From positions 10,666,001-10,730,000 of the forward strand of contig CM119372.1 in NCBI GenBank assembly GCA_051294905.1: a stretch of DNA of 64,000 nucleotides, written 5' to 3'. Both the position numbers and the translations under genes were made by a program. Below, piece by piece: positions 5,344-63,371 of the stretch. The stretch comes from Botryllus schlosseri. Its lineage: Eukaryota. The number at the start of each line of letters is the position of its first letter. Position 1 is the first letter of the stretch. The notes beneath the pieces are model-generated. The model had not been told where the DNA came from, did no database searches, and saw only the letters and a program-made list of their open reading frames with translations.

Positions 5344-5635
5344 GTTATTACTCTGTCTATAGTCCTAAGTAGTACATGAAAATGGACTGTTTTTAGCCAA
5401 CAAGACAGGATTTCCGAAAATATTATGCAATCAGCAGTTTTTTAGACAGGTGGTCTATCTTTTGTGATTTGTATAGTGTCCCCCTTTCCGGATCCAAAAA
5501 TATCGTAACCCTTAATTACAAGTAGCGGGAAATTAGATCTACTTGAGTAAGCAACCAAGTAGCGGAAAAATTACTTGAGTACATCAAAAAAGTAGAAGTA
5601 CTTCGTTACCGACCACCTCTGCGTACTTGTGCTTG

Positions 5636-6242: not shown

Positions 6243-6519
6243 ATTACCATCGCCGACGCCAGCTTAGCACTCTCACAGCGCAGTCGCTCCTTTGCACCTG
6301 ACAACAGGTCTCGTTTGACTAGACAGCATTGTTGTGTCACACTGCCAATATCCATAACAATGAAACATTCGAGGCTAATTGTGGGGGTTCCAGGGCCATG
6401 AGCGAAATAAAATTTATATTTTCCTAATCAATACAGCGTCAGCTTTCGATTGATACCCGTTTTATCAAATTTAATGATCGGCAGGCCGGTCAAAAATTAC
6501 CGTCAAATTGCCTTTAGTC

Positions 6520-7988: not shown

Positions 7989-7996
7989 CTTTATAG

Positions 7997-11228: not shown

Positions 11229-14200
11229 TGGACATGGGGGTGATTACTTCATGAATGTAATCGGTTGCGATTACGATTACGATTACAGCAAAATCAGGAA
11301 GTAGTCGATTACGATTACGATTACATTGGAAAAGTAATCACGATTACTCACGATTACATTTATTTTGCATTTTAGAAGTTATATTGGAAGGCAATATATG
11401 GATTGTGCTGAAAAGGCCTAATGAGATAACAAACCGCCTTTAAAACAGATGCGTAATTTGCTTGTACGTCATAATGTACCAATTGCCCATTTTTATAGAG
11501 GACGATTTATCGCACCCAACCAATTGCATTCTTGCCAGGTCCATGACTGCCGCACCCCAAATACGGTTGGGAGCGAGTTCGGAGGGGACTCAAGAGTATT
11601 TCGTAAACCAACATAAATTATAGAGTATTCTCGAAAGATTTAATTAATTTGAAAATTCTCTCTAGATAATTTATAGTAGGCATGCATTAAAACAAATGGT
11701 TGTTTAAAACACTGTGTGACCCCTCAAAATAGTCGGTTCAACCGTTATAGCACAGATATTTCGTCAAAGGAGCTATATTTACCCTATATTTTCAATTGTC
11801 CATGTCAATCCACATTGGTGAAGTCAAGGCTTGAAAAAAATTACAAAAAACATACAAACATGTTTTAAACAAGGGTATGTTGTAAGCATGCTGGCTTTGA
11901 ATTTATTTTTGTTTTAAATGCAACCCTAAGTTATAGCAATAGGCATTTAGGTTCCAGTCAATACCGAGCCACGACACACCAAAAGACATATGCAATTTCG
12001 ACCAACACGCGACTTCACGAAGTGTGCTACTAAAGAAAGACCTTGGCCGACACTTAGGGTATGTGTCCATTGTCAATAGCCGCGCTGGGTGGGCGTGACT
12101 AATAGTCCAGTCCTTCCAATCCGAACCCACTATGCAAATGCCACCCGGACACCCATAGAGCATTAAAGACATGACAATTTGTGTGTGTGTCTCACGAAAG
12201 TTTTTCTTTTAGTCTGCTACGTTAGGGATACAACAATATCTTTTGATTATATAACATACCGGAAATCACGAATTAACAACATACACCAAAAGTAATTATA
12301 ACAAGATAACAGACGTTATAATTATGAATTACGTGCCCCCAGCTCTACAGGTAAATCTGACCATCGGGGGCAGAGAGAGAGAGAGAGAGAGAGAGGAATA
12401 CAAATTAATAATAATGTAATGCGATTACCAATGTTATTGATGAAAGTCAGTCTTCAACTTGAAATTATCACCATATGGAGGCCAAAGACGAACGTTTGGA
12501 CTGGGGGACGAATAGCTGTTTTGGTCCTGATTCTAGCTAGAACCCACGCTAACATGATATATAAGGCCATGGCTATGGCGACAGGTCCCAATGTTGAGTA
12601 AAAAATTATGAAATAACGATTAGCGCGTGTTTCAAGTAGAGTCATATGAGAATAAGATGAAGAGAACATAAAATTCTGCCTTCAACTTAATACAGATAAT
12701 GTACTGCAAGCTGCCGCTACGAGAAACGGCAAAACGGCTCTGTTGTGATATATATCAGCAACTGTTGATTTTTCTTGCTTCGTTGTGGAAACCGTAATGT
12801 TATATTTGACGAGTACAAAATTTCAAATCTCTGTCCGGTGTACGTACGTACTACATAGGCCTACTGCTCGCCAAGCAGCAACGGCCAAACTGCGTTTGCA
12901 TAACCAAAGATCAATACACAAGTTACTTGGTAAAGTGGTGACTAATTATCCTGCTCCGGGGTACTGGCGTGTGGAACGGGTTGATAACCTGATATACAGC
13001 ACGGCGGGTGTTCTTACAATCGCGCGAATGTACGTGACGTACATCGAATATCTATTTACTGTGGATACTTCTTACGCAATGACTAGCAAAGCTAATAGGC
13101 TGCTTCTGACGTAATAATGAGCAATGGCATTTAAAAATCAGACGTTTATGTTATCATGAACCTGGTATAATACATCTTCCTTGTTCACGAATGTTCAGTT
13201 TATGTCAGGGGTCACCAACACGCGGCCCGCGGGCCGCATGCGGCCCACGAGGTCATATTTTGCGGCCCGCGACTTGATTTGAGATTTTGAAAGAAAGCTA
13301 AGAAAACGATTTTGAAATGCTGAAGTTTACAACAGTTTCAACGTATTGTTGTTGTTGTTGTTGTTTCAAAATAAGCTATTTTCCTGTGCCCAGCATATCA
13401 CTATTCGTCACTAGCTAAAACGGCTTTGGCGATGGAAACAGCATTGCAACGAGGGAGAATAATCAGCTGATATGAATGGGCTGGGCATATTGCCTTAACG
13501 TGCAATGGCCAAACACTGCCAAGACTGAGACGCTTGGAGAACGGCATATAGTGCAGTGGTGTGCACCTCTAGTAGCGTGAAATCATCTGAAAGGGGCGCG
13601 GAGCTGCGATGAATTGAAAATTTTTCCGCGCTCGGCGCGAGTTACATGACATTCATATTTTGTGTGTAACCCGGAATTCTTATTGTAGAATTCTCTCATC
13701 AACAGTCATAACTTTCCATGCCATCAAACTATCCTTTGGGGTTGCTAGCATTCTGGTTGCATTTTGTGATATGACGATACGGGGAGAGCGAAATTTTTCA
13801 ATATCATAAAGAGGGGCGTGTCTAAAAAAGTTTGAGAAACACTGGCGTAGGGCTTCCCCACAAGATCGAGCTTTACGTGGAGGTGGTCTTTCAGCTAGTA
13901 ACGTATCTCGCTAGCCCTAATATCGATTCCTTAGTCGCTGAAAAGCGTTTTCATGTATCGTGCACAGCTCAGAGTTCAAAATAAAATGAAATTGATGATA
14001 AAATTTTTTTGTTGTATTTGTATTCCTTTGATAGAATATTACTTCTTTTGCCTATGTTAGGTAGTACGGCGTTGTACTGACGTAGAGTTTTAAAACGCGG
14101 TTGCCTGGTTTATATCGATATTGAATTCATGCGGCCCGCGGCCGCTACGAAATGTGAAAAGTGGCCCGCGACCCGTTTTGAGTTGGCGACCCCTGGTTTA

Positions 14201-14393
14201 TGTCATAGTCCTTGTACCAATAAAAAATAATCGTTCTTTCACAAAGAAATCGATTAGATATGGGAAGTAGTCGATTACGATTACGATTACTTCGGAATTT
14301 TTTCGAATGTAATCGATTGCGATTACGATTACTTGAAAATGCTGTAATCATGGTAATCGATTACGATTACTAATCGCGATTATCCCATGTCTG
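11229..14393. mobile_element. 3.2-kb compound non-autonomous element with (CGATTA)n subterminal arrays and nested MITEs
   Basis: GACATGGG...CCCATGTCTG termini, imperfect TSD TCGTCCAA/TTGTCCAT, GATTAC arrays at 11260-11357 and 14250-14382; contains 11677-11928, 13206-14195 and a (GA)n run at ~12372-12395. Confidence 0.75.
13206..14195. mobile_element. hAT-type MITE (GGCCCGC subterminal motifs) with a further element at ~13554-13844
   Basis: CAGGGGTCACCAAC...GTTGGCGACCCCTG, exact TSD GTTTATGT. Confidence 0.88.
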
Positions 14394-14778
14394 TTGTCCA
14401 TCTTGTTTCACGTAGATGTGGAACTATCAAGATCGATTTTATAATAGGTCTACGTTACCGGCCGATTTGTTTAATTGTTGTTTGACTTTGACTCATCAAA
14501 TCCTATCTTATATTAATCCAAAACATTCTCTATATCAACAAATATGAATTGGTTTTCTTTTGTATTCTGTATACATCTAAATATCTACTTGCGTATGCGT
14601 TGTATTTTTGGTGTGTATTTTTATGCGTGAGAAATTCGACTCTCCACTTTGCATACTCTGTCCGAGTGTATATGGTGGACATTGTAAGTTGTACAATATA
14701 CATGTACAATATGCGTATATACATTTCTGGATATGAACAGATTAAACATGTTTCCCTCTCATGTTTTTTTGTCTAAAT

Positions 14779-15664
14779 CAGAGGTGGCCAGCCCGTGGCC
14801 CAAGAAAAGGTTTCGAGTGGCCCGCGCGGTAATTATCGAAATTAGCTATAAAAAACGGCAAAATTTGGGATGATGGTGACTAAAAAAGCAACAGTTTTTA
14901 CGCATTATCGTGGCCCGGGGCGACGAAATGGGTCATGCCCCCCAGATATTCGTAAATCTTTGTAAATGAAAATAAAGTGTAGTATCTCGCGACAGACCAT
15001 TTTTTGCACTACGAGCGATTATGTCGTCTCTACATATCTTCCTTTTAGTATAATCCTCCCGATAAATGATAAGATGCTCCTACTATATACAGAATTGAGC
15101 CTAACTGTATTCGCAATTATTTGAGAAACGAATATTCACTGTATCACCACAATCCGGTAGAATACTTCAGTCTAGTGGTGTCCAGCACGCGGGACCGGCA
15201 TTTCGGCGCCAGCCATCTCCGAGCGAGGACACACCACGATATATAAAATGTCGGAAAACATGCCACTCCGCGAGTGAACTCCCAGAATAATCGTCAAAAT
15301 GGTCGACGCGTGTTAGCCGAAACCTCTCCAGACGCCGAATACTCCTGTCATTACAATCTGAGCCCCGCAGTACACATGTTACCCGCTATACATGCAATAT
15401 ATGCAAGTCCCGATATTATTGACTGAATTCATTCGTTAACTTTGAAATATTTTCACACTTCGTGCTAATAGAACACAAATCAACACTGATTTTTCGTGCT
15501 ATTATTGTCAGCGATTTTGGCGCTAAGTAACACACGTCTTCGCGATCACAGTTACCTAATCTAGCTCGAAACAAAAGATCATCAATAGTCAATACTCAAG
15601 TGACCCGCGCAATGATTTGGAAAACCACATGTGGCCCTTTGGCCAGAAAGGTTGCCCACCCCTG
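14779..15664. mobile_element. hAT-type MITE (family of 6520-7988)
   Basis: CAGAGGTGGCCAGCC...GGTTGCCCACCCCTG; flanks GTCTAAAT/GTCTACTT. Confidence 0.8.
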
Positions 15665-15823
15665 GTCTACTTTAACTAATCAACAAATATCTTCTCTAAT
15701 TTATAACAATTCTGCAGATATTGCATATCATAGCCAATTTTTCATTATTTAACTGACGCTAGCGCCGTTATTAGGCTTAAATACATTCTCTTCGTCATAT
15801 CTACTTGTGTTCATCCATCTATG

Positions 15824-16494
15824 TCAGGGGTTCTTGAACTTTTGGATCGCGGACCCCTACAAGACAAGTTATGTGGATGGTTGCGCCTACACCTGGAAAT
15901 TTCAAAAGCCGACGACTGGGAGGTCATCGCATCAAGTTCAACTCTATTTAGGCTTTTCCATGCCTAAAACAAGATAGCTAATTACTAGACTACAGCGATG
16001 AGCGGATTTGAAATTTATATGTCCTAATCCAGTCCTAATCCTAGTCCTATCCAGAAATTTTGTATATTCCAATCCTAATCCGATATAAACTTGGAATTCC
16101 TCTGAGAAAGCCTACATCTTATGCCTATAATTATGTAAAAAGAAATAAAACGCATAATGAGTGCCAAACTACATGATGTAACTCTGGTAGGACGAAAAAA
16201 TTTGTCGACATTTGCCACAGGACATCAATCTCCCCGAAAATCGGTAAATCCAATCCTAATCCTGATCCATTAAAAAATATCAAATCCTAATCCAATCCTA
16301 ATCCGACAAAATTTCACAAATCCGGTTTTTCCAAATCCTAATTCTAATCCATGCTCATTTCTGCTGGACAAGGAAGTCTCAGTCCCACTCACGACGTCAT
16401 TCTCGAAGGATGATCTGGTTTTGTAGTTTCTTGATGACGTATTCCCCTTTCACTGACCCTTAAGAGGTCCGTGGACCCAAGTTTAAGAACCCCA
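15824..16494. mobile_element. hAT-type MITE with nested AATCC-repeat MITE (15993-16363)
   Basis: CAGGGGTTCTTGAACTT...AAGTTTAAGAACCCC termini, CGGACCC motifs. Confidence 0.75.
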
Positions 16495-17161
16495 ATCTAA
16501 ATCTTTATAAATATATCTGCACGTATCACGGGGGCATACCCACATGCTTTCTTAATTTATTATTCTCACTGCATTGATATTTCCATCTCCTGAGAGTCAA
16601 TATACTCATGTGACCCTGACGACGACACGATCGTACCGTTGATTGCTGGTACATATCAGACTCGACGAGTATAAAATATGAATCTGCCTTCGACCGCAAC
16701 CAAATTAGAATAGGAGGATTCCACTTTACACCCGGGCCAGGGTAGCTCTTCTCGGTGCTGTATCGAATAATATCACAGTGGCGTGAAGTTCTATTGCCGT
16801 GTAAGTTGGTAACCTGCGAGTCTATGTACTGTATTTGATATCTTCGTGTAATGAACAGCTGGTTAGACTTCCGCGTCCTGGTTATACTTGACCTGTTCAT
16901 GACTAGCAAGCAGGCATGTCCGATGTCCACAGAACATGATGAGTGTCTTGGGAGAAAACAATGACTATTACCGTGACCAGCAGTTGCGTCGCGCAAACGT
17001 TGTATTGATATCTTTTGGAATCGCAATGCTGCAATGTGTCAACAGGAAGCTTTCTGTTTCGTAGATCGGCTCACCTCCTTCTAGGATATGGATTGATCGG
17101 CTGTTTAGTATTAAGAGTTCGGGGTATTATGTGGGAGCGGCTTTTGTGAGGGCTACCAGAA

Positions 17162-20100
17162 ATGCCTGCTGCCGTAGTTGATTCGCGAACGGTGGGACGA
17201 ACCATCGCTTATCCTACAGAGATTAAAACAGCGCCGAAAAGGAAGCGGTGAGTGTATTACTCAGTATGTCGGGCTAACCAGGTATATGCAAACAATGTTT
17301 TTGAGATGATGGTCACTACTACGTTATTTTGGGCAGTAAAACTTTATCGACAGAGCTTTATACGGAGTAGCGTGTGGAAGAGGTTATATTCAAGCTCGCG
17401 TGATATTTTTCAATTCCTCGAAATACGCCTATACTAGTACAAATATTCGACTTTGTCACAATATCTTGATCTGTGTTCACTATCCATTAAATCTATGATA
17501 TCACAGCATCTTTAAAAACATTCGTCTTCTCCCCACGTTTTTATCCAGATCTCCCTAATTTTCCTGTGGCTACGCCTACGCCGGGGTGTCAAACATACGG
17601 CCCGCCAGACGATTTCATCCGGCCCGCGCAGTACTTCCGAGTAGATTGAAAAATTCTTATATTAAGATGTTTTGCCAGAAATGCTTTCATTAAATATGAC
17701 CTCAAGACAGCAAATGTCGAGCATGTTCAATTGTTCATTTTGATAGGCCACATTATAGCCACGTGACTACGACGTTGCGGTTTCACTCTAGCTAGAACTC
17801 AAGTCGGTGACATTGACGTCCAATTTTGAGAGGGCAAAAAGTGCACACTGACTCCAGAGTTTTATGGAAAATGGACCTAAAAGGAGCTACTCACAGAAGC
17901 GGAAATGCAAATGCGGAACGATTTATGCAGTTTACATGGAAATATATTCGTTACACAAATATATAGTTCAAGCATCTATGGTCGCACTGCTGTTTCACTT
18001 CCGAACCAATAGGTGTTTCGACTTTCTAGAATAAAACCTATATAATCCATCCATGTATTTAGAGATGTACGGATCATGGTTTTTGTGGGGTTACGGATCC
18101 AATCCTGCTTGATAAAATGACCCAATCCTGATCTTGTTTCCATCGTTCATGCTTAAATTCGTATCCTAAATAATCCTCCTCCGATCTGAACGCATCCATT
18201 GGCCCATTTGTCGATATTTTTCAAATTATACCTCGACAATGCATTGGAGTTTGTTATCAAGGATTCTTCGAATTTGTGGTGCAATGCAAAAACTAGCGGG
18301 TACAAGTTCACGCAACACATTGATGTAAACAATCAGAAATACACTTTCATAAACTAGAAATTTAGAATCCCTTCCTGATCCGGACCCGGCACTCAAGCTT
18401 AATGTGAATCCGGATCCAATCCTGTTCATGAAAAACATGCCAAATTCCTGTCCGGTTAGAATTCATAATCTTGATCTCGTACATCTCTAGAATATATGCC
18501 CAACCAAGTATTCAAGTGAAAAGCAATAGCTTGAAGTAGCATTTTGGAATCAGTTGACTATGGTCCGGCCCGCGAGCGATTTGAAGACTTGAATCCGTCC
18601 CGCGACAAAATTTGAGTTTGACACCTCTGGCCTATGCAATACTGCATAGTATTATATTATGCATTATGCATTATGCATATTAGGGCATCCGAATTGGGAT
18701 AGGGGTAAGGGAAAGGCAGGGTTTTCTTGGATTATTTTGTAATGACGCGCTATTATGACACTCGTTGTTTTGCATACAAGCCATGATATATATCTACTTG
18801 CAGCAGTTTTGGTGTGTGCTTGTAAAGCATTACTTGTGCTATACATAATTGCTATTTACTTTTGATCAATGCCGGCAACTATAGTTTGACAAATATACTG
18901 CTGCGGTGTACCAAGATAAACGCGAGTATGGCGTGTTACACATTGAATCGCTGCAGTCCGATAGTCCTATGCCAAGTATTGCCGTGCTATTCATGTCAAA
19001 TTTGCGTTCAGATGTTACTCCACATCACATGGACACCCGAACTCAAAAAAACTAAAAATTGCGGACGATTCGCTGCGTCCACAAAACTTTGGACCATTTG
19101 TAATTTACCCGCTGGAGAATATCGACGAATCTTCCAGGGGCGCATTTGTGTTGGTAGAAGGAGAGAAGCAATTGGAAACAGACAAATGCGATCCACGGAT
19201 GGCTGGAGACTCCAAGTACACAGTTCTGCGCCGTGCTTCCAATCCGCATTCGAAGGGAAATGAGCGGTGCCCGACGGAATTTCGTTATGGCAAAGTCTTT
19301 TCAAAATTATCAGTCAGGTATAATATGTGTGATATAAACCTCAGACGGCAGCGCATATCTACTGAAATACGAATCCTTTTTGTAAGTGCATGCGGACAGG
19401 ACTGAAACAGCAATTCGCCGCCCCCCTACATGTTTGTCTTATGCCCCCATAGGGTGATGGTGATAAACACAACTTCTGGGGGCTTCGCCTCCAAGACCCC
19501 CAACAGGCTGTGTATTTTTGCCGCTATTATCAGCGAGATTTGTTGTACTGTTTATTGAGGCAGATTTTTACGCGTAGACCCGCGAAGCGCGAAAATTTTC
19601 TATAATTCCTGATTGAATCGGTCAATATGACCGGGAGTTGCATATATATTGCTATAAATTTTTATCTTCTTACTGCTCACGTAATCAGATTTACCGGTAG
19701 AGCTGAGTAAGGTGTCTTGAAAAATGTAGCCGCCGTAAATAAAAAATAAACAGCTTCGGGTGGACCCGTTGAAGTAATGACTTCGTTACATGATGTTATT
19801 TCGGTTCTCCTGTCTGATATGTCAGAAGATATCAAAATCGCCCAAACGTACTAATCGAACAGACGGACACGATTTCAAATTGGTATTTCTTTACCGGCAA
19901 ATAATTTTTCCCTGCGGGATGGCATTTGTCTTGTGGGTTTCAGATTGCCAGGACAAGAACATTCGGCGCCAGCCATTTAGCGCACATGAACAATTAAACA
20001 AGAAACATATATCTATTGTATATATATGTATATATCGAAGTTTTCGGTCAGCATAAGGGCTGTTATTTTCGGCCAGAGTTTTCTCGCTGCCGATCATTCT

Positions 20101-30139: not shown

Positions 30140-31095
30140 GAACTCCTGTGATAACCTAACCGTTCGTTGACATCGCTGGTCAACCAATTTCCAACACTAA
30201 AAATGCCAAATACCTTGGTGTTTTACTGGATTCGGACATGTCCTGGAAGAGTCACATACAATCACTCAAACCACAACTATCGAAGGTATGTGGTCTATTT
30301 CGCCGCCTTAGCTACACTCTGCCAGTCAGCGTGCTGTTGATACTCTTCAACACTCTATTCCTATCAAAGTTACGATACAGAATTCTTTGTTGGGGTGCTG
30401 CTTGCAAGAATACAACTGACCCACTGCAAAAACTTCAACATCGGATCATCCGTATCATCGCCAAAGCCCCACGGGGGCCTGGATGTGCAACTGATAAATC
30501 GCTTCTCAAAAGATTTGGTGTTCTACACTTAGAAGATATGAGGACGCTAGAAATTGCCAAGTTTATGTATCAGTTCCATTGCGGTCAATGTCCCTTAAAT
30601 TTTAACGACTACTTCACCTCGGAGACAAAAGCGCACAAGTATACAGCACACGCGCGTCATCGAAGAACAACTACCATATGATCAGGACTGAATACAAGAA
30701 AACGCATTGCTCTATCAAGTATGCCGGACCCCAATTGTGGAACAGCATCTCGCCGGCTATCCGACAGTCGTCGAGCATGTCCGCATTCAAGTCGAAATAC
30801 AAGCAATTTCTTCTAAATCAATACTAGCCAGTCTTCAGGATTACCGGACCACGACCTAACATCGACCTCGCCCTCCGCCCCATGCCACCTCATTTTGTCG
30901 CTTGCGTCTTATATTCTCGGCATTACTTTTCATTCAGTGTGCATGCCTCTTATTTACTTCGCCTAGGCTAAGGTGGGTGTCTGATCTTAATGGCTACTCC
31001 AATTTGTTTCGACACCTTCCTATCTTTTCATTGTATCGCAGTCTTGTGATGTTTTTGAAACGATGAAAATATTAATAAACCTGATTGATTGATTG
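30140..31095 (+). mobile_element. 5'-truncated CR1/L2-group LINE 3' end, frameshifted
   Basis: KYLGVLLDSDMSWKSHI...LFNTLFLSKLRY...LEIAKFMY, then SIKYAGPQLWNSI in another frame; 3' UTR with AATAAA and a (GATT)n tail at 31074-31095. Confidence 0.9.
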
Positions 31096-31432: not shown

Positions 31433-32039
31433 CAGGGACGGTCAACCCGTGGCCAGAGAAGGTTTTGAATGGTCCGCGGGGTAATTATCGAAATTAGTTG
31501 TATTATCTAAAAATAAATTACCAAATCCAAATAATCTAAATTTGATTAGCCTGACCGCGAAATTTGGGATTTTGATGACCAAAATGTCTGTTCCGATTCA
31601 TTGGTGTTGCCCGGGGCCAGCCACATTTTTCATAGATTGTCGTATATGGCCAACCATAAAGTACAATATTTCGCATATTAGCCGAAATCTTCGATATTTA
31701 TATTTCCAAGCGACGGAAATCTTGTCCTTGCCAAATGAGCCCAGCGGTATGCAGATGCGACCCGGAATATATGCAAGTAACATTGTTATCGACCGAATTC
31801 ATTCATTAACTTTAAAAATATTTCGCGCTGCGCGCGGCTAGGTCTTGGGTGCACACCGAGACTTCATATCATAATTGTTATTGATTTTGATGCGAATTAA
31901 TATAAGTATTGTTTTCACCGTTACCTAATCCGGTTCGCTCCTATCGGAAGACTAAAAAAGGTCATCAACATTCAAGTGGCCCGCGCAATGGTTCGCAAAT
32001 CTCATGTGGCTCGTTGGCGGAAAAGGTTGACTATCTCTG
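31433..32039. mobile_element. hAT-type MITE inserted in a SINE
   Basis: Exact TSD GCTTAGAT (31425-31432, 32040-32047); the flanks continue the tRNA-SINE sequence. Confidence 0.85.
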
Positions 32040-45500: not shown

Positions 45501-48500
45501 ATAGCTTCGCGCAGATGAATGAATATATAGCTGTTGAATTAGATTCACGTATACTGCCAACACCTGAGTCACTGAACGTCTGTCCCACACCTGATATTAC
45601 TGGTTTGTTCGGATTCAAACGAATTCCGATATTTCGTGGAACCATTCGCGGCGTTTATATTAACGCCGAACTTTCAACGAAAAATGAGACACACCAGCAT
45701 ATATCGTTTACTTCCGCATTAATCTGACGTCATTTGTATGTATATGCATGCATATTCGGCGAACAATAGTAAGGGTATCGAGTCCTATAGATAACCCTCG
45801 CAAACGGCCGGAGTGCTGTGACAATGTCAATTGAACTGCGTGTTCCAGAAAACCCAATGAAACTCAACTACCATCACTGTTTCATGGCTCTCTTCTAGTG
45901 CCACTATCAGGATACTCCTTCCAACTCCGACATTCGAACACTAACCCCGTCCTGTTTTCAACATCACAATGTACCGCTGACATCGGTCCTGAGATTGCCG
46001 GCCCAAAATATATTTTTTTCCAGTTGCGAGTTATGGCGTTGAGTACAGGCGGTCAGTAACGAAGTACTTTTGTTTTCTGCGAGTACGCAATTTGGTTTTT
46101 CCTGTACTATAATTACTCAAGTGCTTATGTTTGTAGACCACTTGGAATTTTTCAGGCCAACTACTTATTTCCACATTTCGGAATTTGTAAAATAAAAAGT
46201 AGATTTTTGATGCGTTTACATCACTTTTACGAGCGAATTCGTCATGACAACTGGACGATGAAGATCCCGTGTCACCGTGAATGGATAAGTTTCGTAAATT
46301 ACACCCATTGTGTCATTGGTCGTTTTGTGATGGTCGCGAAGAGGAACTCTGTAATTTCTAAAGCTATGTCGGATTAACTGCTAAAAGTATGCGATCCCAC
46401 CTCCAAATCTACTTTTGAAACTACTCGAATATTTTCGGATCGTCAGTTTTTACTGTTACTGAAGTTTGTAATCTAGTAAAAATATACTCGGTTGCTTCTA
46501 TTGGTACTATACTTTGACTTCGACCACATCTGTAAGTTCAATCGCCCTCATTCAGGCAAAAGCGTGACGTTGTGGGAGTTCATAAGAGACACGCTGCTGG
46601 ATCCGAAATACTGTCCTCGCCTCATCAAATGGGAAGACCGCAAAGCCGGCATATTCCGATTCGTGCAGTCCGACGTGGTGGCGGGAATGTGGGGCGACAA
46701 GAAGAACAACCCGAAGATGACGTACGAGAAACTCAGCCGTGCGATGAGGTAAGCGGCGGGCGCTCGGAATCCGCCAGCGCGTACGAAACTCATTGTTCGA
46801 ATCCGTTTCGATGCGAAGGTACTACTACAACCGCGGCATTCTCGAGCGTGTGGACGGCCGTCGGCTGGTGTATAAATTCGGAAGGAACGCGCACGGCTGG
46901 CAGCAGAGCGAATTCCAGACGGAAGTGGTGAGTATAACGCCGTACTTCTATACTTTGACGAGTGCATCAAGCAGGTTTCGACTGATTGCGCTACTTGCTC
47001 TACTGCAGTGGTTCTCACCCGCCAGTGCCGGTCCGTCCGCCAGATGAAATAGAATTTTATATCTCGATTCCAAAACGCAAGAATTTGGGTGCTTGTCTAT
47101 TAAGTAGAGGTATATAAAACATCAGATTTATTTCGAAGTTTGGACCTTATCTTTTTTTATGGTGTCGCAATAGAGAGTTTATGGTCTACTTTGTTCGTGC
47201 GTTACATCGGTGCAAGTGTTAAAAAGTAGCCTACAACTATACAACTAAAGTTTCGGAAAGGTTATATGTGAAAGCTAAAAAAGTTAAATTCCTACAGTGA
47301 AATTTAGCGACACTTGTGTGTAATAGAGGTTATGGCAAATAGCACAGTCGTACTTCTTTCAAAGGATACGGAAACAATCACAATCAGGTTAGTGGTCTTT
47401 AGCAGTACTTAGCGAGCGTCATCTTGCAGAAACTTCGATAGAACCACTGATAAATATATAGTATCAAAAAGACATCATTAAATGAAGTTTCCAATATTAC
47501 ATTTAAGTTGCACGCATTTGTCGGTTCGCGAGGTCAAAAAGGTTGAGAAATGCTGCTCTAGTGAATATGTTCTTAACCACTTCTACTTGAACAGTTTTAA
47601 GTACTTACGTATTCATTTTGAGATTTTGAAAAGTAGAACGTAGTTTTGCGATGATTTTGCATCGCTTTTATGCGTGAAATCGTCACACGAAACGCGTCAA
47701 ACAGCCCTAACAGTAGAGATCATGTTTTTTTTTCAGGATCGATAAAATGGAATCCTGATCCAATACGCATCCTGTTTCCGACTCTAATGTTAAAATCCTG
47801 ATCCAAAAATATCCTGCACAAGATTGAGCATCCATTTGTCCCTTGTGGTCGATATTTCTTTTAATGTCACCTCGGCAATGCATTGAAGTTTGCTATTTGG
47901 GATTTTTCGATATAGTGGTGTAATTCTGAAGCCAAGTCCAAGATAGATAGATAGATCATTTATTAAATTCGTCTCACCAGGAAAATTTGAAACATTCAAA
48001 ATAATCGGTATGGACAGGGAAGGGACGATACGACCAAGAAGTCATCTAGTCAATCCCTTCCCTATAGAGCATACAAATTATAACTCACGAGACAGACGAA
48101 CACAATGATAAATTTCGAAAACACAAAAATAAAAGAGATCGGTATAAACGAACAACATACACATAAGAAAGCCATGTTCGAACAGCAACAACAACAGTGC
48201 ATCAATTACAGACCAATAGGTTGATTAGAAGGGTCCAGCAAATAGTCTATCAGTGATTTTTTAAAACCGTTGAAGCTTCGTTCACGAATTGTAATGGGTA
48301 CATTATTCCAGATGATAGGACCGGCTATCAAAAGAGATCGTTTGCAGAATTCCTTCCTTACTAAATTGTGGCGATAATTTGGTGCGGCTGAAAATCTGGT
48401 ATTGTGACTATGGGTGGATGTTGATAGTTGTAATTCATCCTCCAAACTAAAGGCAAGCTGTTTATTGTGAAAACGATACATGAATTTAGCTACTTCCAGA

Positions 48501-50578
48501 TATTTAATTTCTTCAACTCTCAATATTCTCCACTCCCGATATGACTTCCCAAGATTACATCGAAATGACCCCGTAAGGGCACGAATGGCGTTGTTTTGAA
48601 TCACCTGTATTGGATGCAAAGTACTTTTGTTGCAGAAGCCCCTACTCAAAATTCCATATTGCAAGTGACTGTGAACCATTGCAAAATACACTTCTCGGAG
48701 CACCGTCTTCGGAACTAGATGTCTAAGGCGCCGTAAGATGCCAACACCACGGGAGAGTTTAACCGCTAGCTTCTGGGTATGGTCCTTCCAGGATAGATCG
48801 CCATCAATGAATATGCCAAGATATTTTGCAACCCTAGAAGGGTTTATCGTCTTATCATTTACCATTACACTAACAGTGCGATATTCTTTAGTACTTAAGA
48901 CGTTACTAATGAATATAATCTGGGTTTTGGCAGCACTCAGCGTTAATTTATTACATATCATCCATTTGGGTACCAAAGTCATCTCCCTATTAAGCTTCGC
49001 ATTGAGCTCATCAACGTAATCTGACGAGGCGAAGAGGTGCGTGTCATCAGCAAATAGGGTGGTTTCCATCGATGTGGATTTAGCTAGGTCGTTGATATAT
49101 ATCAAGAACAATGTCGGACCAAGAACAGACCCTTGAGGGACACCGCATCGTATGGCGCCAGGCGACGAGTTGATGCCACCGATATCGACACATTGAGATC
49201 TATTGCTCAAGTAAGATCTGAAAAGGTCATTGGCGACACCCCTGATACCGCAGGCCGATAACTTGGCATGAAGGAAGTCCAAGTTCCTACAAAATATCGA
49301 AGTAAACAAACAGAAAGTCACTTTCATGCACTAGAAATTTACAATTCTGTCCTGATCCGAACCTGTTTGAGAAAAAACTTGCTGGATTCCTTCCCAGTTA
49401 GAATCCAAAATCCTGATCCCGTACGTCTCTCACAGCCGCTGCTGTAAATATATTCGAAGACTGTACCTATCTGTAGCGTCGTTAGTCATTTTTCGTAAGT
49501 CGCGAAGATACATCGTGCAATTTCGAAAGAAGCCGCCACGGATAAACTGCCAAAAGATTGCGAACCCTCCACCAAATCTACTTTTCGAAGCTTCGTACTC
49601 GAATAATTTCGTGACCTTTCATTTTGTACACTTGGAGTATAGTTTTGACACGTCTTGGACAACGCTACATTCCCTTGTAATCTGAGTTGAAAATATGGAC
49701 AGTCATGAAGCATTTCGCTTTTTCGAGGTGTACTTAAGTAGGTTTTGCATGCATTCACTACGTACTCAAGTGCTTCTATTTTTAAACTACTACCACTTAT
49801 GCTTAACAGTTTTCAGTTTTTATGTGGAACTAGACCTGGAATACGTACTTTTTTCGTACTCGAAATTCTCTACTTCTATCGTTACTTGAACAGGAATTTA
49901 CTTCCACTTCTCTTTCTATCATTTTGTACTTACGCTTGAAGTAATTTTGACATAAGGTATTTTGGAAGCCACTACTTCTTGTTGCACTTGGACGCGAATT
50001 TACGTTACGTTTACTCCCAGGATAAAACCGGCGCGCGGTACGCCTGTGACAGCGAGACCTGTAAAGAGGAAAGGGCGGCTGACCCGCAACCCGTCGAGAG
50101 GAAATCTCGCAAGTCCAAGCCCAGGATCCCCGTGAGCGTATGCGACGAAGTCGTACCGCCCACGAAGATATGTCGGATATCGTGCAGCTCATCGCCCACG
50201 TACTTCTCTATGGAAAGATCGACCGACAACACGCTCAATTCTGCGGGTTTCTGCGAGCAGACCGCGGCGGTAAACTTGGAAAAATCCTTCGCGGATATCA
50301 GTTCGGAAGAAATCAAGATACGAAGCCAGCCCGTCGCAGGCAGCCCGTCGCCGGCCGTGTCGGTTACGGAACAGCAGCCTTCTTGTATCGTGTATGTCGC
50401 TCGTCGCGATGTGATGAGCAGCGAGACGACGGACGAAAAAGACATTATGCTGCTGGAAAACGCGCGGGACCTGCCCTCGGCGTGGACGCAGGATACGCAG
50501 GACGCTTCCAGTTCGAAGCTGCCGAGTGCGGACGTGCTCTTAGGGAAACAGTATAAGATTGCTAATGCTGTGATGTGA
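39579..50578 (+). CDS. ESE-class ETS transcription factor (ELF3/ELF5/EHF-like), Pointed domain to stop codon
   Basis: Exons 39579-39637, 39877-40228, 41176-41906, 41965-42037, 42699-43028, 44016-44180, 46556-46748, 46819-46927, 50021-50578 splice in phase. ETS domain: [84 protein letters not shown]-like segment: [13 protein letters not shown]...LRALTQDIF...[11 protein letters not shown]. Confidence 0.9.
46556..46927 (+). CDS. ETS DNA-binding domain exons (46556-46748, 46819-46927)
   Basis: LWEF, KWED, W...[15 protein letters not shown] and LVYKF motifs; the [15 protein letters not shown] string is characteristic of the ESE subfamily. A 70-nt intron splits AM-R-YY. Confidence 0.97.
47943..49283 (-). 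mobile_element. 5'-truncated CR1/L2-group LINE (reverse transcriptase C-terminal part, 3' UTR, (ATCT)n tail)
   Basis: ORF 48206-49327(-) contains [33 protein letters not shown] and GPIIWN. AATAAA and an ATCT tandem tail at 47941-47964; AAGTCCAAG duplicated at 47934-47942 and 49275-49283. Confidence 0.93.
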
Positions 50579-53638: not shown

Positions 53639-56600
53639 ATGCCTAAAACAGCTAAGAAAGACGGTGGCTGGGGTTGGGTGGTCGTGGGTGGCGGTTGCGT
53701 GATATACCTGATTGTTTTTGGACTGTTGAGGTAAGTTGATTATTTCATTTTGATAAACCAGTCTCGCCTTTTAATTGGTAGTCTAGCTGAACTCGAGTGG
53801 CAACTGGTAACCATACTCCATCCATGTGTGTGAGACCGCAATCACATGTTCAAAACCATTGTTTGTTCATTGTGACGCGACGATTTCTTATAAAATAAAC
53901 TTCAACGAACAACACATTCATATTCGCAATTTATTCACTATAAGCTTTTCAACTGACCTCGTCGGTAATGGCAGTCAGTATAATCAGAGATTGCAATTCG
54001 AAATGTAAAGATGAAATAGGTAGTGTGACGTAAGAATGGTATAACAACAACAACGACAGATTTCACAAAACGAGAGCGTTAAGCAAAAATGCAATTAGTG
54101 CAATACAAATAAGCTATAATATATAACCGTGTATTTCATTAGTGTTGCGTCTCTGGCTATATATTATAGCTTATTTGTATTGCACTAATTGCATTTTTGC
54201 TTAACGCTCTCGTTTTGTGAAATCTCTCGTTGTTGTTGTTATACCATTCTTACGTCAAACTACCTATTTCATCTTTACATTTCGAATTGCAATCTCCGTA
54301 TTATACTGACGGCCACTACCGACGAGGGTCAGTTGAAAGGCTTATAGTGAATAAATTGCGAATATGAATGTGTTGTTCGTTGCAATATTCAAATTCTGTA
54401 CCACAAGGAACCTATTTAGAATAAACTTCGTGCGTTAGCAAATATCTATCGATTGTTGTGGTTTTAAGTAGCATGCATGTCTGTCATAGGAAATAGCACG
54501 GAAGGTATACCTATGAAGATCGTCTTCGACACTCATTTGTTACATCAAACGTACTATTGACCCGCAACACAAGCTAGCATTTAGCAAGGACATTCGCATC
54601 CTTTTTGATGTCGCTGCAGTTCTCAATATTACGAAATCAGCGCGTATGAGTGCTATTCTCCGACTTCAATACTCAGTGATTCATCTATCGCATTTGCTCG
54701 TCGCCGTGCCACATGTAAGAAATGGCGTTGCCAATGAACATTTGTTCTCTCGGGCAAACAACACCCAGGTTATATCGTTGATTTTAATGCTGTAGCTCTG
54801 TATCGTGCGTTCTGACTGAACTTCTTGCAAATAACCCTGGTAATATAGACAACAGTATGTCTTCGCGACATTGTTATAGAATAAGAACAAGTGAACATCG
54901 CACTGCTCATCTCCTACAAATTTGATGTTGCAGTGAGACCTGGCGATAAATTACAAATGATGCGATCGGTATCGATCACAAAAATCTCATTACATCCTCA
55001 ATTTGACCATCTCACCTGCAGAATACCGACGTGTTTGATAGAAATACCGTGGTCTGTTTACTATATCGTATGCTCTCGTATATAGCATCTTGGCAAACAT
55101 TTCTCTGGGGACGAGACCCAGCACTGGACTTACTCACTCAACTCAATAACGCAAGGGCTCGATCTGAATTCTTGTCTGTAGGATGAGACAGAAACTTTCA
55201 CTGTACTGTAGTGGCGACTATGGCTTCACAATGGTTAGGTAAAGGTTAAGTGTTTGACCCATGCTTGGTAAAACCCAAGACTTGCTTGTAGAATGGTATC
55301 CATGACTTCCCCGTTGGGTGCTTGGCAGGTGCCAGTCCGAGAAAGCGTACAGACGGGAAGGAATGGTGCTAAATAGACTAGTTTTCGGTTCGTTATCACC
55401 TCAAAGCACCGTGATGACGCGGACGAAAATAAACCGTGTTCTTTAATTGACATCGATCAATGCGCATTGTAATAACAAACATTAGGTCGCGGTTTTATCA
55501 ACTGCACTGCATTAAGAAGTACATTGTTCGCATGAAATGAGGTAAGTATTATGAATTTTGAGGAGCAAACATAATTTTAAACATAGGCTTATCTCGAAAT
55601 TTACGATATCATTTGGGTGCCGCGAGTATTAATAAGTTTTGGCAGGGCGCTGCGAACAAAAAATAGTTTAGGAACCGCTGGCCCATCCGGTTGGCGACAA
55701 TTCAATTCAATTTGTTGCTAAAAATTTTATCATTTCAATACACCACAAGACTGCAATACAATGTAAGATAGGAAGGTGTCGAAACACAGCCACGACACAG
55801 TCCATCATTATAGATTATAATATAGATTACTGACTTGTGTGTTGTAGTTGAACGGCTATTATCCATTCATAACTCGATAACTATACGTTGAGTTTGTTTC
55901 CCTACTTTTATAGCCTTAGCATATCCAGTTATCCGCCTGCTTGCCTGTCTACACTTCGCCGGTCCGATTTAATATATTGCCGCAGGGTAGCTGTTGTATA
56001 CCCTGTTAAGTGTAGGTATATCAAATCTTGACATGTCATACCACCACGAAACATGGTAACGTGCCTTTGCGACAGGCGACGTTGTATAGCTGGAACATTC
56101 GGTTTCGACTGGCGAAGAGTATGCATAATATATTTTGTGTTACATATGTGCTGTTGTGCTATAGTGCCGTAAAATACGACTATGCAGTATACATGCTCTC
56201 GGTTGTCGCAAAATGGATCGTTGGTAAAAACGCTGTTTGCCAGACCTCAGCAGCTTTTAAAACAAGTTCCTTTCGTTACTGCGAAAAGAAATGCTCCTAT
56301 AAATTCCCATCAAACACTATGCATAGAGCAGTAGAATCGGTGTATTGGGAATTATCGTAACATAACATACATGCGTGCATTGCAACTTATCTTGTTGAAG
56401 TTCATTAGCGAAATGGATTAACATTCCAAGTAAAATCCTAACTAACCATTACTGGTTGCGGCACACCTATCACGCATGGCGTATCGGATCTCGGTAATTT
56501 AATTCTCACCGCATCAAATACTGGTTGGTCGTTCATTACTTTCCAAACTAGATTCGATTTAGCACCTGAATATATGAAGACAGAACTGTGAAAATGTCTT

Positions 56601-59600: not shown

Positions 59601-61205
59601 TCATAATGGATTGACGTTGACGATTGAAAATATAGGGTAAATATAGCTCCTTTGACGAAATATATGTACTATAAATATTGAACCGACTATTTTGAGGGTT
59701 ACAACCATCACATATCGACATGCGTCAGCTAAATCGGGTGGTAATTGTCCGTGGGCTCATACAACATGTCTTTTGGAAAGTATTTACACACATATGGCAT
59801 AATTTTACAATTAAAAAAAAAAAACATTTTTTTAAAAGGCTTTTGTTTAAAACACTGTTTAAGACATGTTTTAAACAAAGTGTTTTAAAACACCGTTTGT
59901 TGTAAATGCAACCCTATGTATAATAATGCCATAATTATTTACATACTTTCGAAAAAAACATGTAGTATGAGCCTATGGACAATTTGCACCCAATATCATC
60001 GATGCAGACGATGTGGAGTGGCTGGAACCCTCAAATCGCTGTCGATTCAACAGCTATAGCATGTAGATAAGCTATAGATCATTGTACGGAATGGCCGTTC
60101 ACTGTTCAGATGATGATGACCGCCGACCGTAAATAAGCTACTTAACGATGTAGTCTCGGTTTAAGATATTTTGGTCTGTTTATGACAGTGGTCGGAAGCC
60201 ATTTTCGTCGAAGGAGCCATATTCTCCCTATATTTTCAATTGCCAATGTCAATCCGCCACGACGTCACACTTAAAGATTCGTGACGTCTTGGGTAAAAAA
60301 ATACAAAAAAACAACAACAAAATCATGTTTTTAGCCTTGGTTTTTAAGTTCATTTTTGTTTTAAATGCAACCCATAGTTACAGTACTATAACTGACAATA
60401 GTATTAATACTGGGATTTTCGTACTAATATAATCGGTTCATCTTTGAATTTTGGAAGGTGTCGGGATGAGTGTCGCGTTCGTGGCCACGCCTGTCATAAT
60501 TGGACATTATTTCGAAAAGCGAAGGTCGCTGGCGATCAACATCGCCAGCATAGGTAAGTGCTGAAGAAAATCAACTTTCGTATTCTCCCGAAACCGACGC
60601 CAAAACGTGTCTTGTTCGATAATACGATTCGCCCAAGTCCAGTTCAAGTCGATGTTTTCGCAAAATGTTTCGACATATTTTATCACTCGCGACTGAGTTC
60701 TTTGAGGTGCCGTTTGCGAAAACTGTGCTTCCCCTCGATAGTTATGTCGCAATTGAAACGTCACTTTATCTATTCTACAACTTTACAACCGCCGTATACA
60801 TACAGTCATCCACCTTGATTTCAAGTGTGACGTTACAGTCACCTGTGGGTATGACCAATGAAAACGATTAAATTCCGATTGTTCTAATTTCAACTGGCGT
60901 GTAGTGATGTACTCGGCGAGGTCAAGACGAGACACCAAACTTACATCCGGTATTTATGCCGCTGTCTCTAATCAGGGGCTTCATTGGGAACGCTGTCTAT
61001 ATGCCCCCTCAACGAATGGCTCACCGAGTCTTACGGACTGCAAGGGTACTTCCTGATATTTTCCGGGGTGCTGCTAAACGTCTGCGTAGCCGGCATGCTT
61101 ATGAGGCCGCCGCCCAAGGATCAAGTCCCGGACGCCCCTCGAACCCGAGATTCAGAATTCGAACCGCCGGACGAAGAGAGCTCCCTTGTAGGGAAAAAGA
61201 ACCCG
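53639..61205 (+). CDS. SLC16 / monocarboxylate transporter family MFS protein, N-terminal half; continues beyond the window
   Basis: Exons 53639-53730, 58472-58575, 58834-58977, 60458-60553, 60976-61205, in phase. Motifs DGGWGWVV (SLC16 N-terminal signature), LIDKFGHR, HYFEKRRSLA, YGLQG..LI.SG..LN..VAG.LMRP. Confidence 0.93.
53903..54382. repeat. Long palindrome (~225-bp arms, ~25-nt spacer); probable inverted Penelope-like pLTR with hammerhead-like motif
   Basis: 53903-54128 is a near-perfect reverse complement of 54154-54382; hammerhead-like motif at 54314-54349(+) and 53936-53970(-), followed by AATAAA. Confidence 0.85.
54314..54349 (+). ncRNA. Degenerate minimal type I hammerhead ribozyme motif
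   Basis: cacta-CCGACGA-gggtcagtt-GAAA-ggct-TA-tagtg: perfect 5-bp stem I, core with U4>C, weak G-U stem II. The other arm has the palindromic AAGCTT stem III. Confidence 0.5.
57560..57831 (+). mobile_element. tRNA-derived SINE
   Basis: 5' head GGCGAGATAGCGCAGTG (A box) and GGTTCGAGTCC (B box), then a non-tRNA body and an (AAAC)-like tail; further copies at 59196-59463(-), ~31415-32130(-, interrupted) and ~29384-29411(-). Confidence 0.85.
59196..59463 (-). mobile_element. tRNA-derived SINE, second copy (inverted)
   Basis: Reverse complement of 57560-57831 throughout (ggactcgaaccc, cgctatctcgccac, atggtcatttacaccaggcc). Confidence 0.85.
59493..59916. mobile_element. hAT-type MITE inserted into a copy of its own family
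   Basis: TAGGGTTG...CAACCCTA, exact TSD TGTATAAT; the host copy runs ~59467-60375 in the opposite orientation. Confidence 0.85.
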
Positions 61206-61915: not shown

Positions 61916-62553
61916 TTCCCAAAGGCCGTCAGGAGATAAGCGCCGAATCTTTTTTTTTCAAATAAATAAACAACAACATTGTGAAGTAATCAATTTAGTT
62001 AGATCCCGACCGATATCAGATTTTTCTGCCGATACCTATCTTGCTTAAGTGCGTTTTCAAAACTCCAATGCATTTATTTGTAAAGCTTTCCAGCCATTAC
62101 CATGCTTGGGCAATGGGCATGAAATAAACTAGAGAGGCTGCGTCTGGACACTTGTATGCTATATAAGACACGGGCGGCCAACCCGTGGCCCGCGAGAAGG
62201 TTTTGTGTGGCCCCCGAGGTAATTCCGGAAATTAGTTATAATATCAGGTAGAATTGCAAGGCCAACCAAAATTTGATTAGCCTGACCGCGAAATGTGATG
62301 ATGACTAAAACATCAGTTCCGACACATTGGCGCTACCAGGGGCCAGCCACATTTATCGCAGATCTCGCTTGTGCGCTGGCAGCGAGATCGTCGGCGATGA
62401 AACATCTGCCACAAATAATTGAAGCATGTTCGCCTCTAAACCTTCGATATTGCTATGTCTAAACGCCGGAAAATCCTGTCCTCGCCGAACGAGGCCAGTG
62501 GTATACAGAGGCGACTCCCCCAATATATGCAAGTAACATATTTATTGATTAAC

Positions 62554-62773
62554 GTAAGACCTTGATAGTTTCCACACCCTATTTCACGTCCACTTGTATG
62601 ATTATAACTTTATTATAGTTACACGAGCTTTCGGAGCTCTACTCCTTCATCATGTGATAAGGTGCTTTATCACCGGATGTAGGAGCAGAGCTCCGGAAGC
62701 TCGTGTAACTATAATAAAGTTATAATCATACAAGTGGACGTTAAATAGGGTGTGGAAGCTATCAAGGTCTTAC
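62554..62773. repeat. Palindrome (~107-bp arms); probable inverted Penelope-like pLTR with hammerhead-like motif
   Basis: gtaagaccttgatag...ctatcaaggtcttac arms; hammerhead-like motif at 62667-62708(+) and 62619-62660(-); flanked by an ATATTTATTGAT direct repeat (62538-62549, 62810-62821). Confidence 0.85.
62619..62660 (-). ncRNA. Degenerate minimal type I hammerhead ribozyme motif
   Basis: Minus strand reads ttatcac-ATGATGA-a-ggag tagag ctcc-GAAA-gc-TC-gtgtaa: one mismatch (C3>A) from the CUGAUGA core, with stem II, GAAA, a palindromic stem III, a UC cleavage site and stem I. Confidence 0.65.
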
Positions 62774-63371
62774 TTTTATATATACCGACTGCTATCGGCA
62801 CAACAACGTATATTTATTGATGGAATTCATTCATTATCTTTGAAAACATTTCGCGATTCGCGCGACCAGAACATGAATGCGCACTGCATGGTTCCACACT
62901 GAGTTTTCATGACATAATTGTTATCAATTTTAAATCGTAGTAATATAAGTCTTGTTTCAACGTGACCTAATTCTGTTCGCTCCAATCGGACGACTAAAAA
63001 AGGGTCATCAACATTCAAGTGGCCCGCGCAATCGTTTGTAAATCTCATCTGGCCCTTTGGCCGAAAAGGTTGACCACCCCTGATATAAGACATCTATGAA
63101 TATTCCCAGTCTAACAGTCGCACGTTATATTTTCTGTGACTGCCTACTACCATGTGGTGACGTCACGTATTTACCGATACATTGCCGATAATTCCTTCAA
63201 AATCTGATATCGACGCGATATTATCGGCGAACCGATAAAAATAATCTGTCGTGCTTTCATTTTAGTAGGTCAATTACCACCTTATGGTTGAAGTTATCGT
63301 GATTTGTAGTCTGGTACAGCCGTTGCATCCGATTCATTATCGCTGCTTATAAGAATTCCTAGCCATATATC

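What the first reader, a model, noticed from the sequence alone, without database searches (positions are those of the whole stretch)
62550..62809. Palindromic insertion whose two arms each carry a minimal hammerhead-ribozyme motif plus AATAAA (Penelope-like inverted pLTR)
Seen: ~107-bp arms fold back almost perfectly and sit inside a hAT MITE, bounded by a 12-bp direct repeat ATATTTATTGAT. The + arm reads ttatcac-CGGATGT-a-ggagc aga gctcc-GGAA-gc-TC-gtgtaa-ctat-AATAAA; the - arm reads ttatcac-ATGATGA-a-ggag tagag ctcc-GAAA-gc-TC-gtgtaa. The arms are mutated at different core positions, so combining them restores an exact CUGAUGA/GAAA/UC type I hammerhead with a tiny palindromic stem III. Known: such minimal hammerheads occur in Penelope-like element pLTRs and in retrozymes, cleave as dimers, and Penelope insertions often have inverted pLTR pieces. 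Inference: this is a footprint of a ribozyme-bearing retroelement family in an SLC16 intron; both local copies are probably inactive.
Basis: partly seen in the sequence, partly recalled or inferred. Interest (0 to 1): 0.72.

Follow-up and report, generated by a model that had tools for sequence, protein, structure and literature searches.

The report
Head-to-head Penelope retroelement stub with hammerheads
This small mirror-image insertion is the leftover end of a Penelope-like jumping gene that landed inside another transposon in a gene's intron; it carries two damaged copies of the small self-cutting RNA that such elements are already known to carry, so it is an ordinary example of a described kind.

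Summary
Observation confirmed. Two 107-110-nt arms sit head to head, followed by a one-sided 33-36-nt tail, between 12-bp direct repeats. A paralogous MITE lacks the insert and holds the repeat once. Each arm carries a minimal type I hammerhead with the described Penelope traits; a descriptor finds it once in the window and never in 30 shuffles. Arm plus tail is a multi-copy family with GAAA intact, and other copies show inverted joints. A marine-metagenome element carries an intact look-alike, matches the arm beyond the search motif and lies downstream of a GIY-YIG frame. This is the published anatomy of a 5'-truncated Penelope-like insertion with inverted pLTR and tail. Both local ribozymes are broken and buried in the long hairpin. 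Not shown: this family's own ORF (no genome held), family letters at core positions 3, 4 and 9, and self-cleavage. The scan noted the same kind of stub before on other DNA (e1-7858806, e1-7856734). Ordinary; low interest.

The parts
62169..63082 (+). Host MITE (hAT-type by its ends and 8-bp duplication at 62161-62168 and 63083-63090; label recalled), interrupted by the insertion
   Evidence: paralogues in the window at 31433-32039 and elsewhere
62538..62549 (+). Left copy of the 12-bp target-site duplication (A/T-rich)
   Evidence: D19; single copy (8 of 12 letters alike) in the empty paralogue
62551..62660 (-). Inverted pLTR fragment (left arm), no tail
   Evidence: 3-nt extension from family letter G at 62774
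62618..62660 (-). Minimal hammerhead of the left arm; one core change (position 3, C to A, at 62653) and a U-G pair in helix II; antisense to the host gene
62661..62666 (.). Head-to-head junction; family likeness of the direct arm starts at 62663-62664
   Evidence: tables 5 and 8
62667..62776 (+). Direct pLTR fragment (right arm)
62667..62709 (+). Minimal hammerhead of the right arm: helix I 62671-73/62703-05, core 62674-80, extra A 62681, helix II 62682-86/62690-94, 62695-98 box, palindromic GC, predicted cut between 62702 and 62703; three core changes (62675, 62680, 62696); sense to the host gene
   Evidence: family A at 62696
62713..62718 (+). AATAAA hexamer 10 nt after the predicted cut (mirrored in the left arm; also follows the relative's hammerhead)
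62777..62809 (+). One-sided 33-nt tail (36 nt if counted from 62774), A/C-rich end with a small hairpin; part of the family
   Evidence: depth through 62809; likeness to the relative and fold
62810..62821 (+). Right copy of the 12-bp target-site duplication
   Evidence: D19
60972..61205 (+). Stop-free stretch holding the last SLC16/MCT exon seen upstream of the insertion (donor GT at 61206)

Best explanation
The 260 bp between the duplications are a very short, 5'-truncated insertion of an endonuclease-bearing Penelope-like element (PLE). Steps: (1, inferred from PMC11167929) an element-encoded GIY-YIG/RT protein cut A/T-rich DNA inside the MITE and began reverse transcription in the A/C-rich tail of the pLTR RNA. 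(2, shown in the DNA) one copy runs from the tail end back through the whole hammerhead to 62663-62667. Because it spans the predicted cut site, the template was uncleaved or re-ligated RNA (inferred). (3, shown in the DNA; mechanism inferred) a second, inverted copy without the tail was joined head to head, and repair left a 12-bp duplication. (4, inferred) later point changes broke the core in both arms. In the active parent the motif is a minimal type I hammerhead that would need a dimer or the element's protein to cut. At this locus it is a dead passenger: in any read-through RNA the arms pair with each other instead.
For: Empty paralogue with a single target copy; 4 RNA reads of MITE copies run from the left flank straight into 62810 (table 7). 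Tail of 33-36 nt on one side only, against the published 30-40 bp, and duplications of 8-10 bp in rotifer PLEs. Arm and tail form one multi-copy family: summed contig depth 5,179-6,381 over 62681-62720 in X1 against 5-23 for listed single records; A at 62696 in 5648.7 of 5669.6 depth (38 contigs) in X1 and 17166.9 of 17459.8 (33 contigs) in X7; 4 opposite-strand joints in other copies. All four published traits of PLE hammerheads present: extra base between 9 and 10.1, G10.1-C11.1, palindromic 15.2-16.2, long helix II with short helix I. Intact relative L001/L002: helix I strands, loop length and AATAAA were not forced by the pattern; the 91 nt after AATAAA align too, 1 of 3000 shuffles and 0 of 1510 window tiles scoring as high; GIY-YIG-like frame upstream on the same strand (Atlas 0.97, PF01541 in 23-34% of cluster members) and an RT piece on the opposite strand (RVT_1 E 1.5e-5, below Pfam's cut-off). 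Helix I and II pair probabilities are 0.00 in the full insertion on both strands.
Against: No ORF of this very family was seen: no genome is held and tblastn of the relative's EN and RT pieces against the window finds nothing. The read lay shows no row for 62674, 62675 or 62680, and its tally by kind of change leaves no room for a G>T or T>A row there. I read this as an end filter (every row resting on contigs alone has 31 or more letters to the end; these places have at most 18), but a family with right-arm letters is not excluded. L001 and L002 are one element from another, unnamed organism; the EN frame ends about 750 nt before the hammerhead with rearranged sequence between, and Pfam does not hit that frame. 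2 of the 3 metagenome hits are this element; the third (L003) shares only the motif. All three frames of arm plus tail have stops, unlike PLEs whose pLTR and tail hold the ORF start. Rfam has no hammerhead hit, but it also misses the intact relative.
Confidence: 0.86

Rival explanations
1. The family is a dedicated non-autonomous, pLTR-only unit of about 147 nt with a fixed 5' end 10-11 nt upstream of the hammerhead core, moved in trans by a PLE. The stub is then a complete element, not a random truncation.
For: 3 of 4 opposite-strand joints in other copies fall at 62663-62664, where the direct arm of this copy also starts, and two long pieces end there (tables 5 and 8). A similar family of small palindromes was noted in a shark (e1-7858806, unchecked note).
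Against: The reference laid began at 62661, so likeness further upstream could not be seen. A fixed junction at the pLTR start is also described for autonomous PLEs. Depth falls from tail to hammerhead in X7, as expected for ordinary 5' truncation. Each joint rests on one contig.
Confidence: 0.2
2. It is a piece of a non-LTR retrozyme (tandem 150-450-nt repeats with type I hammerheads, copied through circular RNA).
For: Type I hammerhead in a short ORF-less repeat; a preprint argues that retrozymes derive from PLE pLTRs (abstract and introduction).
Against: No tandem array at the locus; none of the 9 joints listed goes back head to tail (contigs can drop such forms); the motif is of the minimal PLE type, whereas retrozymes carry canonical motifs; tail and inverted copy are PLE marks.
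Confidence: 0.05
3. It is a palindromic DNA-transposon MITE or foldback element, and the ribozyme look is incidental or captured.
For: Near-perfect inverted arms between direct repeats resemble a MITE.
Against: The inverted repeat does not reach the right duplication (33-36-nt tail); other copies have unequal arms; descriptor hit absent from 30 shuffles; likeness to a GIY-YIG-linked pLTR over arm and tail.
Confidence: 0.04

Closest known systems
Endonuclease-bearing Penelope-like elements with inverted 5'-truncated pLTR and tail (Arkhipova et al. 2013, PMC3846280, passages and Discussion read; Craig et al. 2021, PMC8557442, passages read)
   Same: Head-to-head inverted pLTR, optional 30-40-bp tail at one end, short duplication (8-10 bp in the rotifer), insertion into other repeats, A/T-rich target.
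   Different: Here nothing but pLTR is left (no ORF), the arms are nearly equal, the duplication is 12 bp, and no ORF start is recognisable in pLTR plus tail.
Minimal hammerheads of metazoan PLEs, variant with a small palindromic helix III (Cervera and De la Pena 2014, PMC4209133, parts 1-2 of 4 read: abstract, results, discussion; supplements not read)
   Same: Type I, extra base after A9, G10.1-C11.1, short helix I, 2-nt palindrome in place of helix III; most motifs lie alone in truncated copies, and pairs on opposite strands 100-700 bp apart are described.
   Different: Helix II is 5 bp (6-8 in the examples quoted); the two motifs are only about 20 nt apart; both are mutated in the core.
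PAc (Poseidon of Anolis) in vitro system (Frangieh et al. 2024, PMC11167929, parts 1-2 of 4 read: main text)
   Same: ATT-containing target, A/C-rich tail end with a small hairpin, inserted DNA spans the uncut hammerhead, no read ends piled at the cut site (table 6, on very few reads).
   Different: In PAc the ORF starts at helix II; here an ATG in the core would meet a stop shared by both arms after 23 codons. The clade of this family was not determined.
Non-LTR retrozymes (Cervera and De la Pena 2020, PMC7229834, passages read; Li et al. 2026 preprint 10.64898/2026.07.22.740005, part 1 of 5 read)
   Same: Short, ORF-less, type I hammerhead, multi-copy.
   Different: Retrozymes are head-to-tail arrays with canonical motifs; this is head-to-head, with a minimal motif and a tail.

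Membership tests
Penelope-like element (EN+) insertion | Inverted 5'-truncated pLTR joined head to head | tested here: met
   other copies show 4 opposite-strand joints
Penelope-like element (EN+) insertion | One-sided 30-40-bp tail that belongs to the element | tested here: met
   33-36 nt, family depth runs through 62809; aligns with the relative
Penelope-like element (EN+) insertion | Short target-site duplication at an A/T-rich site | tested here: met
   12 bp; empty paralogue
Penelope-like element (EN+) insertion | Hammerhead motif in the pLTR | tested here: met
   degenerate in both arms
Penelope-like element (EN+) insertion | Same family encodes a PLE-type RT and GIY-YIG endonuclease | tested here: inconclusive
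   Not in the window; no genome; shown only for a homologous pLTR in another organism
Minimal type I hammerhead of PLEs | Intact core boxes in the family consensus | tested here: inconclusive
   A13 confirmed in 99.6% and 98.3% of depth; positions 3, 4, 9 not reported; each is intact in one arm
Minimal type I hammerhead of PLEs | Extra base between 9 and 10.1, G10.1-C11.1 pair, palindromic 15.2-16.2 | tested here: met
   (traits)
Minimal type I hammerhead of PLEs | Self-cleavage as dimer or with protein help | not testable with these tools
   needs a bench assay; the palindromic stretch can form a 4-bp self-duplex of about -4 kcal/mol
Non-LTR retrozyme | Head-to-tail tandem units, each with a hammerhead | tested here: not met
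   no backward joint among 9 joints listed (contigs show presence, not absence)
Non-LTR retrozyme | Abundant linear and circular RNA of unit length | tested here: inconclusive
   25 and 97 reads laid in two RNA runs read at 6% and 3%, most on the MITE part; none 99% alike
MITE / foldback DNA transposon | Inverted repeats reach both ends next to the duplication | tested here: not met
   tail of 33-36 nt separates the right arm from the duplication

The most novel reading that the evidence does not exclude
The family is a pLTR-only, non-autonomous Penelope parasite with a fixed start just upstream of helix I, whose mirror arm is rebuilt at each insertion, and whose ribozyme core is broken more often than chance: 4 of 8 arm-to-arm differences fall in 11 core bases of 110 (P 0.003; 0.023 within the 36 nt nearest the centre; one locus, test chosen after seeing it), three of them in the arm that is sense to the host gene. 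If this held genome-wide, the paired arms would be a natural internal control for selection against, or error-prone copying of, PLE hammerheads, a direct handle on the open question whether these ribozymes cut in vivo.
Probability: 0.1. Interest if true: 0.5.

Novelty: new member of a known kind. Interest (0 to 1): 0.14.

Why it matters
Little by itself: it adds one more family to the known PLEs with minimal hammerheads and is a clean teaching example of the inverted-pLTR-plus-tail footprint with a verifiable empty site. Its only wider use is as a data point on PLE insertion mechanics: the inserted DNA spans the uncut ribozyme, and the head-to-head junction recurs at one position. Paired arms from many such stubs could test whether catalytic bases are lost faster than neighbours.

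Tried and rejected
Own genome: none held, so no genome-wide consensus and no search for the family's ORF. Rfam at E up to 10: 14 matches, none a hammerhead; the top ones are miRNA hairpin models far below their gathering scores, artefacts of the palindrome. Rfam on L001-L003: 0 matches, so the blank is uninformative. Other copies of the arm in the window: none by blastn or by a covariance model built from both arms and the relative (the four training sequences match by construction, best other window match E 2.3). Exact arm pattern in metagenomes: 0. Gapped hammerhead pattern: 3 loci in metagenomes, 0 in viral contigs, 0 in prokaryote genomes. L003 holds the motif but no other likeness and fails the descriptor; not used as support. 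PDB search with the L001 RT piece gave only chance matches. Sequencing runs: no RNA holder listed; the two RNA runs laid gave too few reads on the arm to test ends or strand. Earlier findings by sequence for the arm and for the second palindrome: none; near this place: none. Clustering of arm differences in the second palindrome, as a replicate of the core-enrichment idea: not significant (scan statistic 0.076). Selection against cutting of the host pre-mRNA as the cause of three core changes was considered and thought weak: one change would suffice and the long hairpin already hides the motif. Four literature searches listed no paper on this particular family, but the organism was not identified and repeat libraries and supplements were not searched, so this is no claim that it is unpublished.

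Full report
OBSERVATION. Arms at 62554-62660 (minus strand) and 62667-62773 (plus strand) are 107 nt long with 7 mismatches around a 6-nt centre; the region folds at -179.7 kcal/mol, z -24.2, with 0 of 100 shuffles as good. A 12-bp direct repeat lies at 62538-62549 and 62810-62821. The surrounding element, 62169-63082, has short inverted ends and an 8-bp duplication; calling it a hAT MITE rests on recalled knowledge. Exons upstream match MFS_1 weakly and monocarboxylate transporters 1 and 2 (E 5e-08; E 0.0013) on the plus strand. The last exon seen ends at a GT donor at 61206; the C-terminal half was not found in the window, so the intron is inferred. The organism was not identified.

IT IS A REAL INSERTION. 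A paralogue of the MITE at 31433-32039 aligns on both sides and lacks the insert, with one copy of the target, 8 of 12 letters alike. In run X23 four reads pass from the left MITE flank directly into 62810 (table 7). The 12-bp repeat is therefore a target-site duplication. With the family letter G at 62774 (3875 of 4016.5 depth in X1) the arms extend to 62551 and 62776, which leaves a 33-nt tail.

THE MOTIF. Both arms show helix I, a seven-base box, one extra A, a 5-bp helix II closed by G-C, a four-base box, a palindromic GC and UC. Cervera and De la Pena list these traits for PLE hammerheads, including the variant with a small palindromic helix III, pairs of motifs on opposite strands and low activity even as dimers (parts 1-2 of 4 read, supplements not read, and their consensus tables may hold this family). 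A descriptor written from these traits finds 0 exact hits and 1 hit with one mismatch (left arm) in the window, and 0 hits in each of 30 resampled windows; the right arm needs three mismatches. Rfam reports no hammerhead here, but it also misses the intact relative described below.

THE FAMILY. No genome is held, so I laid 4 of the 24 runs listed on 62661-62960 at 85% likeness. X1 may be the sample behind the assembly; X7 is another sample and study. Summed contig depth over the hammerhead is 5,179-6,381 in X1 and 13,234-18,279 in X7, against 5-23 and 33-102 for the single records listed. The tool warns that this is no copy number, but it shows a repeat family that includes the tail. At 62696 the family has A in 5648.7 of 5669.6 (38 contigs) and 17166.9 of 17459.8 (33 contigs), so GAAA is intact. 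Against my reading, no row is given for 62674, 62675 or 62680, and the tally by kind of change leaves no hidden G>T or T>A row. Every row that rests on contigs alone has 31 or more letters to the end of the piece, and these places have at most 18, so an end filter is the likely cause; the family letters there stay untested. Both arms share letters where most of the family differs (62725, 62755), so they come from one template or subfamily. Four opposite-strand joints, one contig each, occur in other copies (62663/62712, 62664/62726, 62664/62767, 62708/62777); none of the 9 joints listed goes back head to tail. RNA runs gave 25 and 97 reads, most on the MITE part, none 99% alike, and no sharp ends.

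A RELATIVE WITH PROTEIN. A gapped hammerhead pattern found 3 metagenome loci. L001 and L002 are one element (677 nt at 99.6%) with an intact hammerhead matching the right arm in 31 of 36 letters. The core letters were forced by the pattern; the helix I strands, the loop length, the C at the position of 62686 and the AATAAA were not. The 91 nt after AATAAA, wholly outside the pattern, also align with L002: 1 of 3000 dinucleotide shuffles and 0 of 1510 window tiles score as high. L002 carries a 177-aa frame upstream on the same strand that the Atlas places with GIY-YIG clusters (0.97; PF01541 in 23-34% of members; no Pfam hit). L001 carries an RT piece on the opposite strand (RVT_1 E 1.5e-5, under the curated cut-off; eukaryotic clusters at 0.95); that its motifs are PLE-like is my recall. 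The endonuclease frame ends about 750 nt before the hammerhead, with an inverted piece between. So arm plus tail is homologous to a pLTR beside a GIY-YIG frame, but in another organism. L003 shares only the motif and was not used.

MECHANISM. Craig et al. describe an inverted 5'-truncated copy at the 5' end and a 30-40-bp tail at one end as typical of PLEs (passages). Arkhipova et al. show such inserts with 8-10-bp duplications and read the head-to-head junction as self-priming. Frangieh et al. show in vitro that the PLE protein cuts both strands at ATT-rich DNA, starts reverse transcription at two sites that bound the tail in an A/C-rich stem-loop, uses uncleaved RNA, and that the hammerhead cuts only with protein. 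The locus fits: the target holds ATT, the tail ends A/C-rich after a small hairpin, and both arms span the predicted cut site at 62702/62703. Shown here: duplication, arms, tail, family, homology. Inferred: the enzyme, the order of synthesis and any ribozyme activity of the parent. One difference from PAc and the rotifer elements: all three frames of arm plus tail have stops.

LOCAL ACTIVITY. The left arm has C3 changed, the right arm U4, A9 and A13. Folded alone, the left arm loses helix I (pair probability 0.02); in the whole insertion helices I and II have probability 0.00 on both strands because the arms pair with each other. Both copies are very likely inactive; this was not assayed.

ONE ODDITY. 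Four of 8 arm differences hit the 11 core bases of 110 (P 0.003; 0.023 among the 36 nt next to the centre). This is one locus and an after-the-fact test, and nearness to the hairpin tip is a confound. The second palindrome of the window did not replicate it convincingly (0.076). I keep it only as the novel case.

RIVALS. Retrozyme: no tandem array, no backward joints, minimal rather than canonical motif. MITE or foldback: the inverted repeat stops a tail short of the duplication and other copies have unequal arms. A dedicated pLTR-only element remains open, since 3 of 4 joints start at 62663-62664.

EARLIER NOTES. The scan holds unchecked notes of a 4.2-kb head-to-head PLE with duplication and one-sided tail in this genome (e1-7856734), of another PLE hammerhead in this genome (e1-7786987), and of 200-bp palindromic PLE stubs in a shark (e1-7858806). 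They agree with the reading I had stated before looking and are not counted as evidence.

VERDICT. A real, correctly read, ordinary 5'-truncated Penelope-like insertion with two dead minimal hammerheads: a new member of a known kind, interest 0.14.

Noticed in passing
window 53894-54429: A second head-to-head insertion with the same anatomy but unrelated sequence: arms of about 228 nt (92% over the palindrome), 10-bp direct repeat at 53894-53903 and 54420-54429, one-sided 37-nt tail at 54383-54419, and a GAAA-like box followed by AATAAA near the outer ends. Probably another PLE stub; no hammerhead matched the descriptor even with 3 mismatches or the model.
   Followed up: partly
window 62673-62677 and 62692-62696: The two right-arm changes at 62675 and 62696 together make a 5-bp inverted repeat that could compete with helix II; read from the sequence, may be chance.
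   Followed up: no
window 62731-62760 and 62781-62800: Family depth rises two- to threefold from 62731 in both DNA runs and peaks again in the tail in X7: many shorter copies or related subfamilies share these parts.
   Followed up: no
L001 102-449 (-), L002 1-109 and 983-1091: The metagenome element is internally rearranged: RT piece on the opposite strand and a 109-nt inverted copy of the sequence upstream of the endonuclease frame.
   Followed up: partly
L003 794-826 (-): A similar hammerhead-like motif with a longer loop in another metagenome contig, with no recognisable PLE frame.
   Followed up: no
window 48206-49330 (-) and 30160-30681 (+): LINE-type reverse transcriptase remnants (RVT_1 E 2.5e-13 for the first; the second is judged by eye).
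   Followed up: no
window 31433-32039, 7731-7995 with 6515-6710, 14774-14851 with 15396-15665: Further copies of the host MITE; two appear split by other insertions.
   Followed up: no
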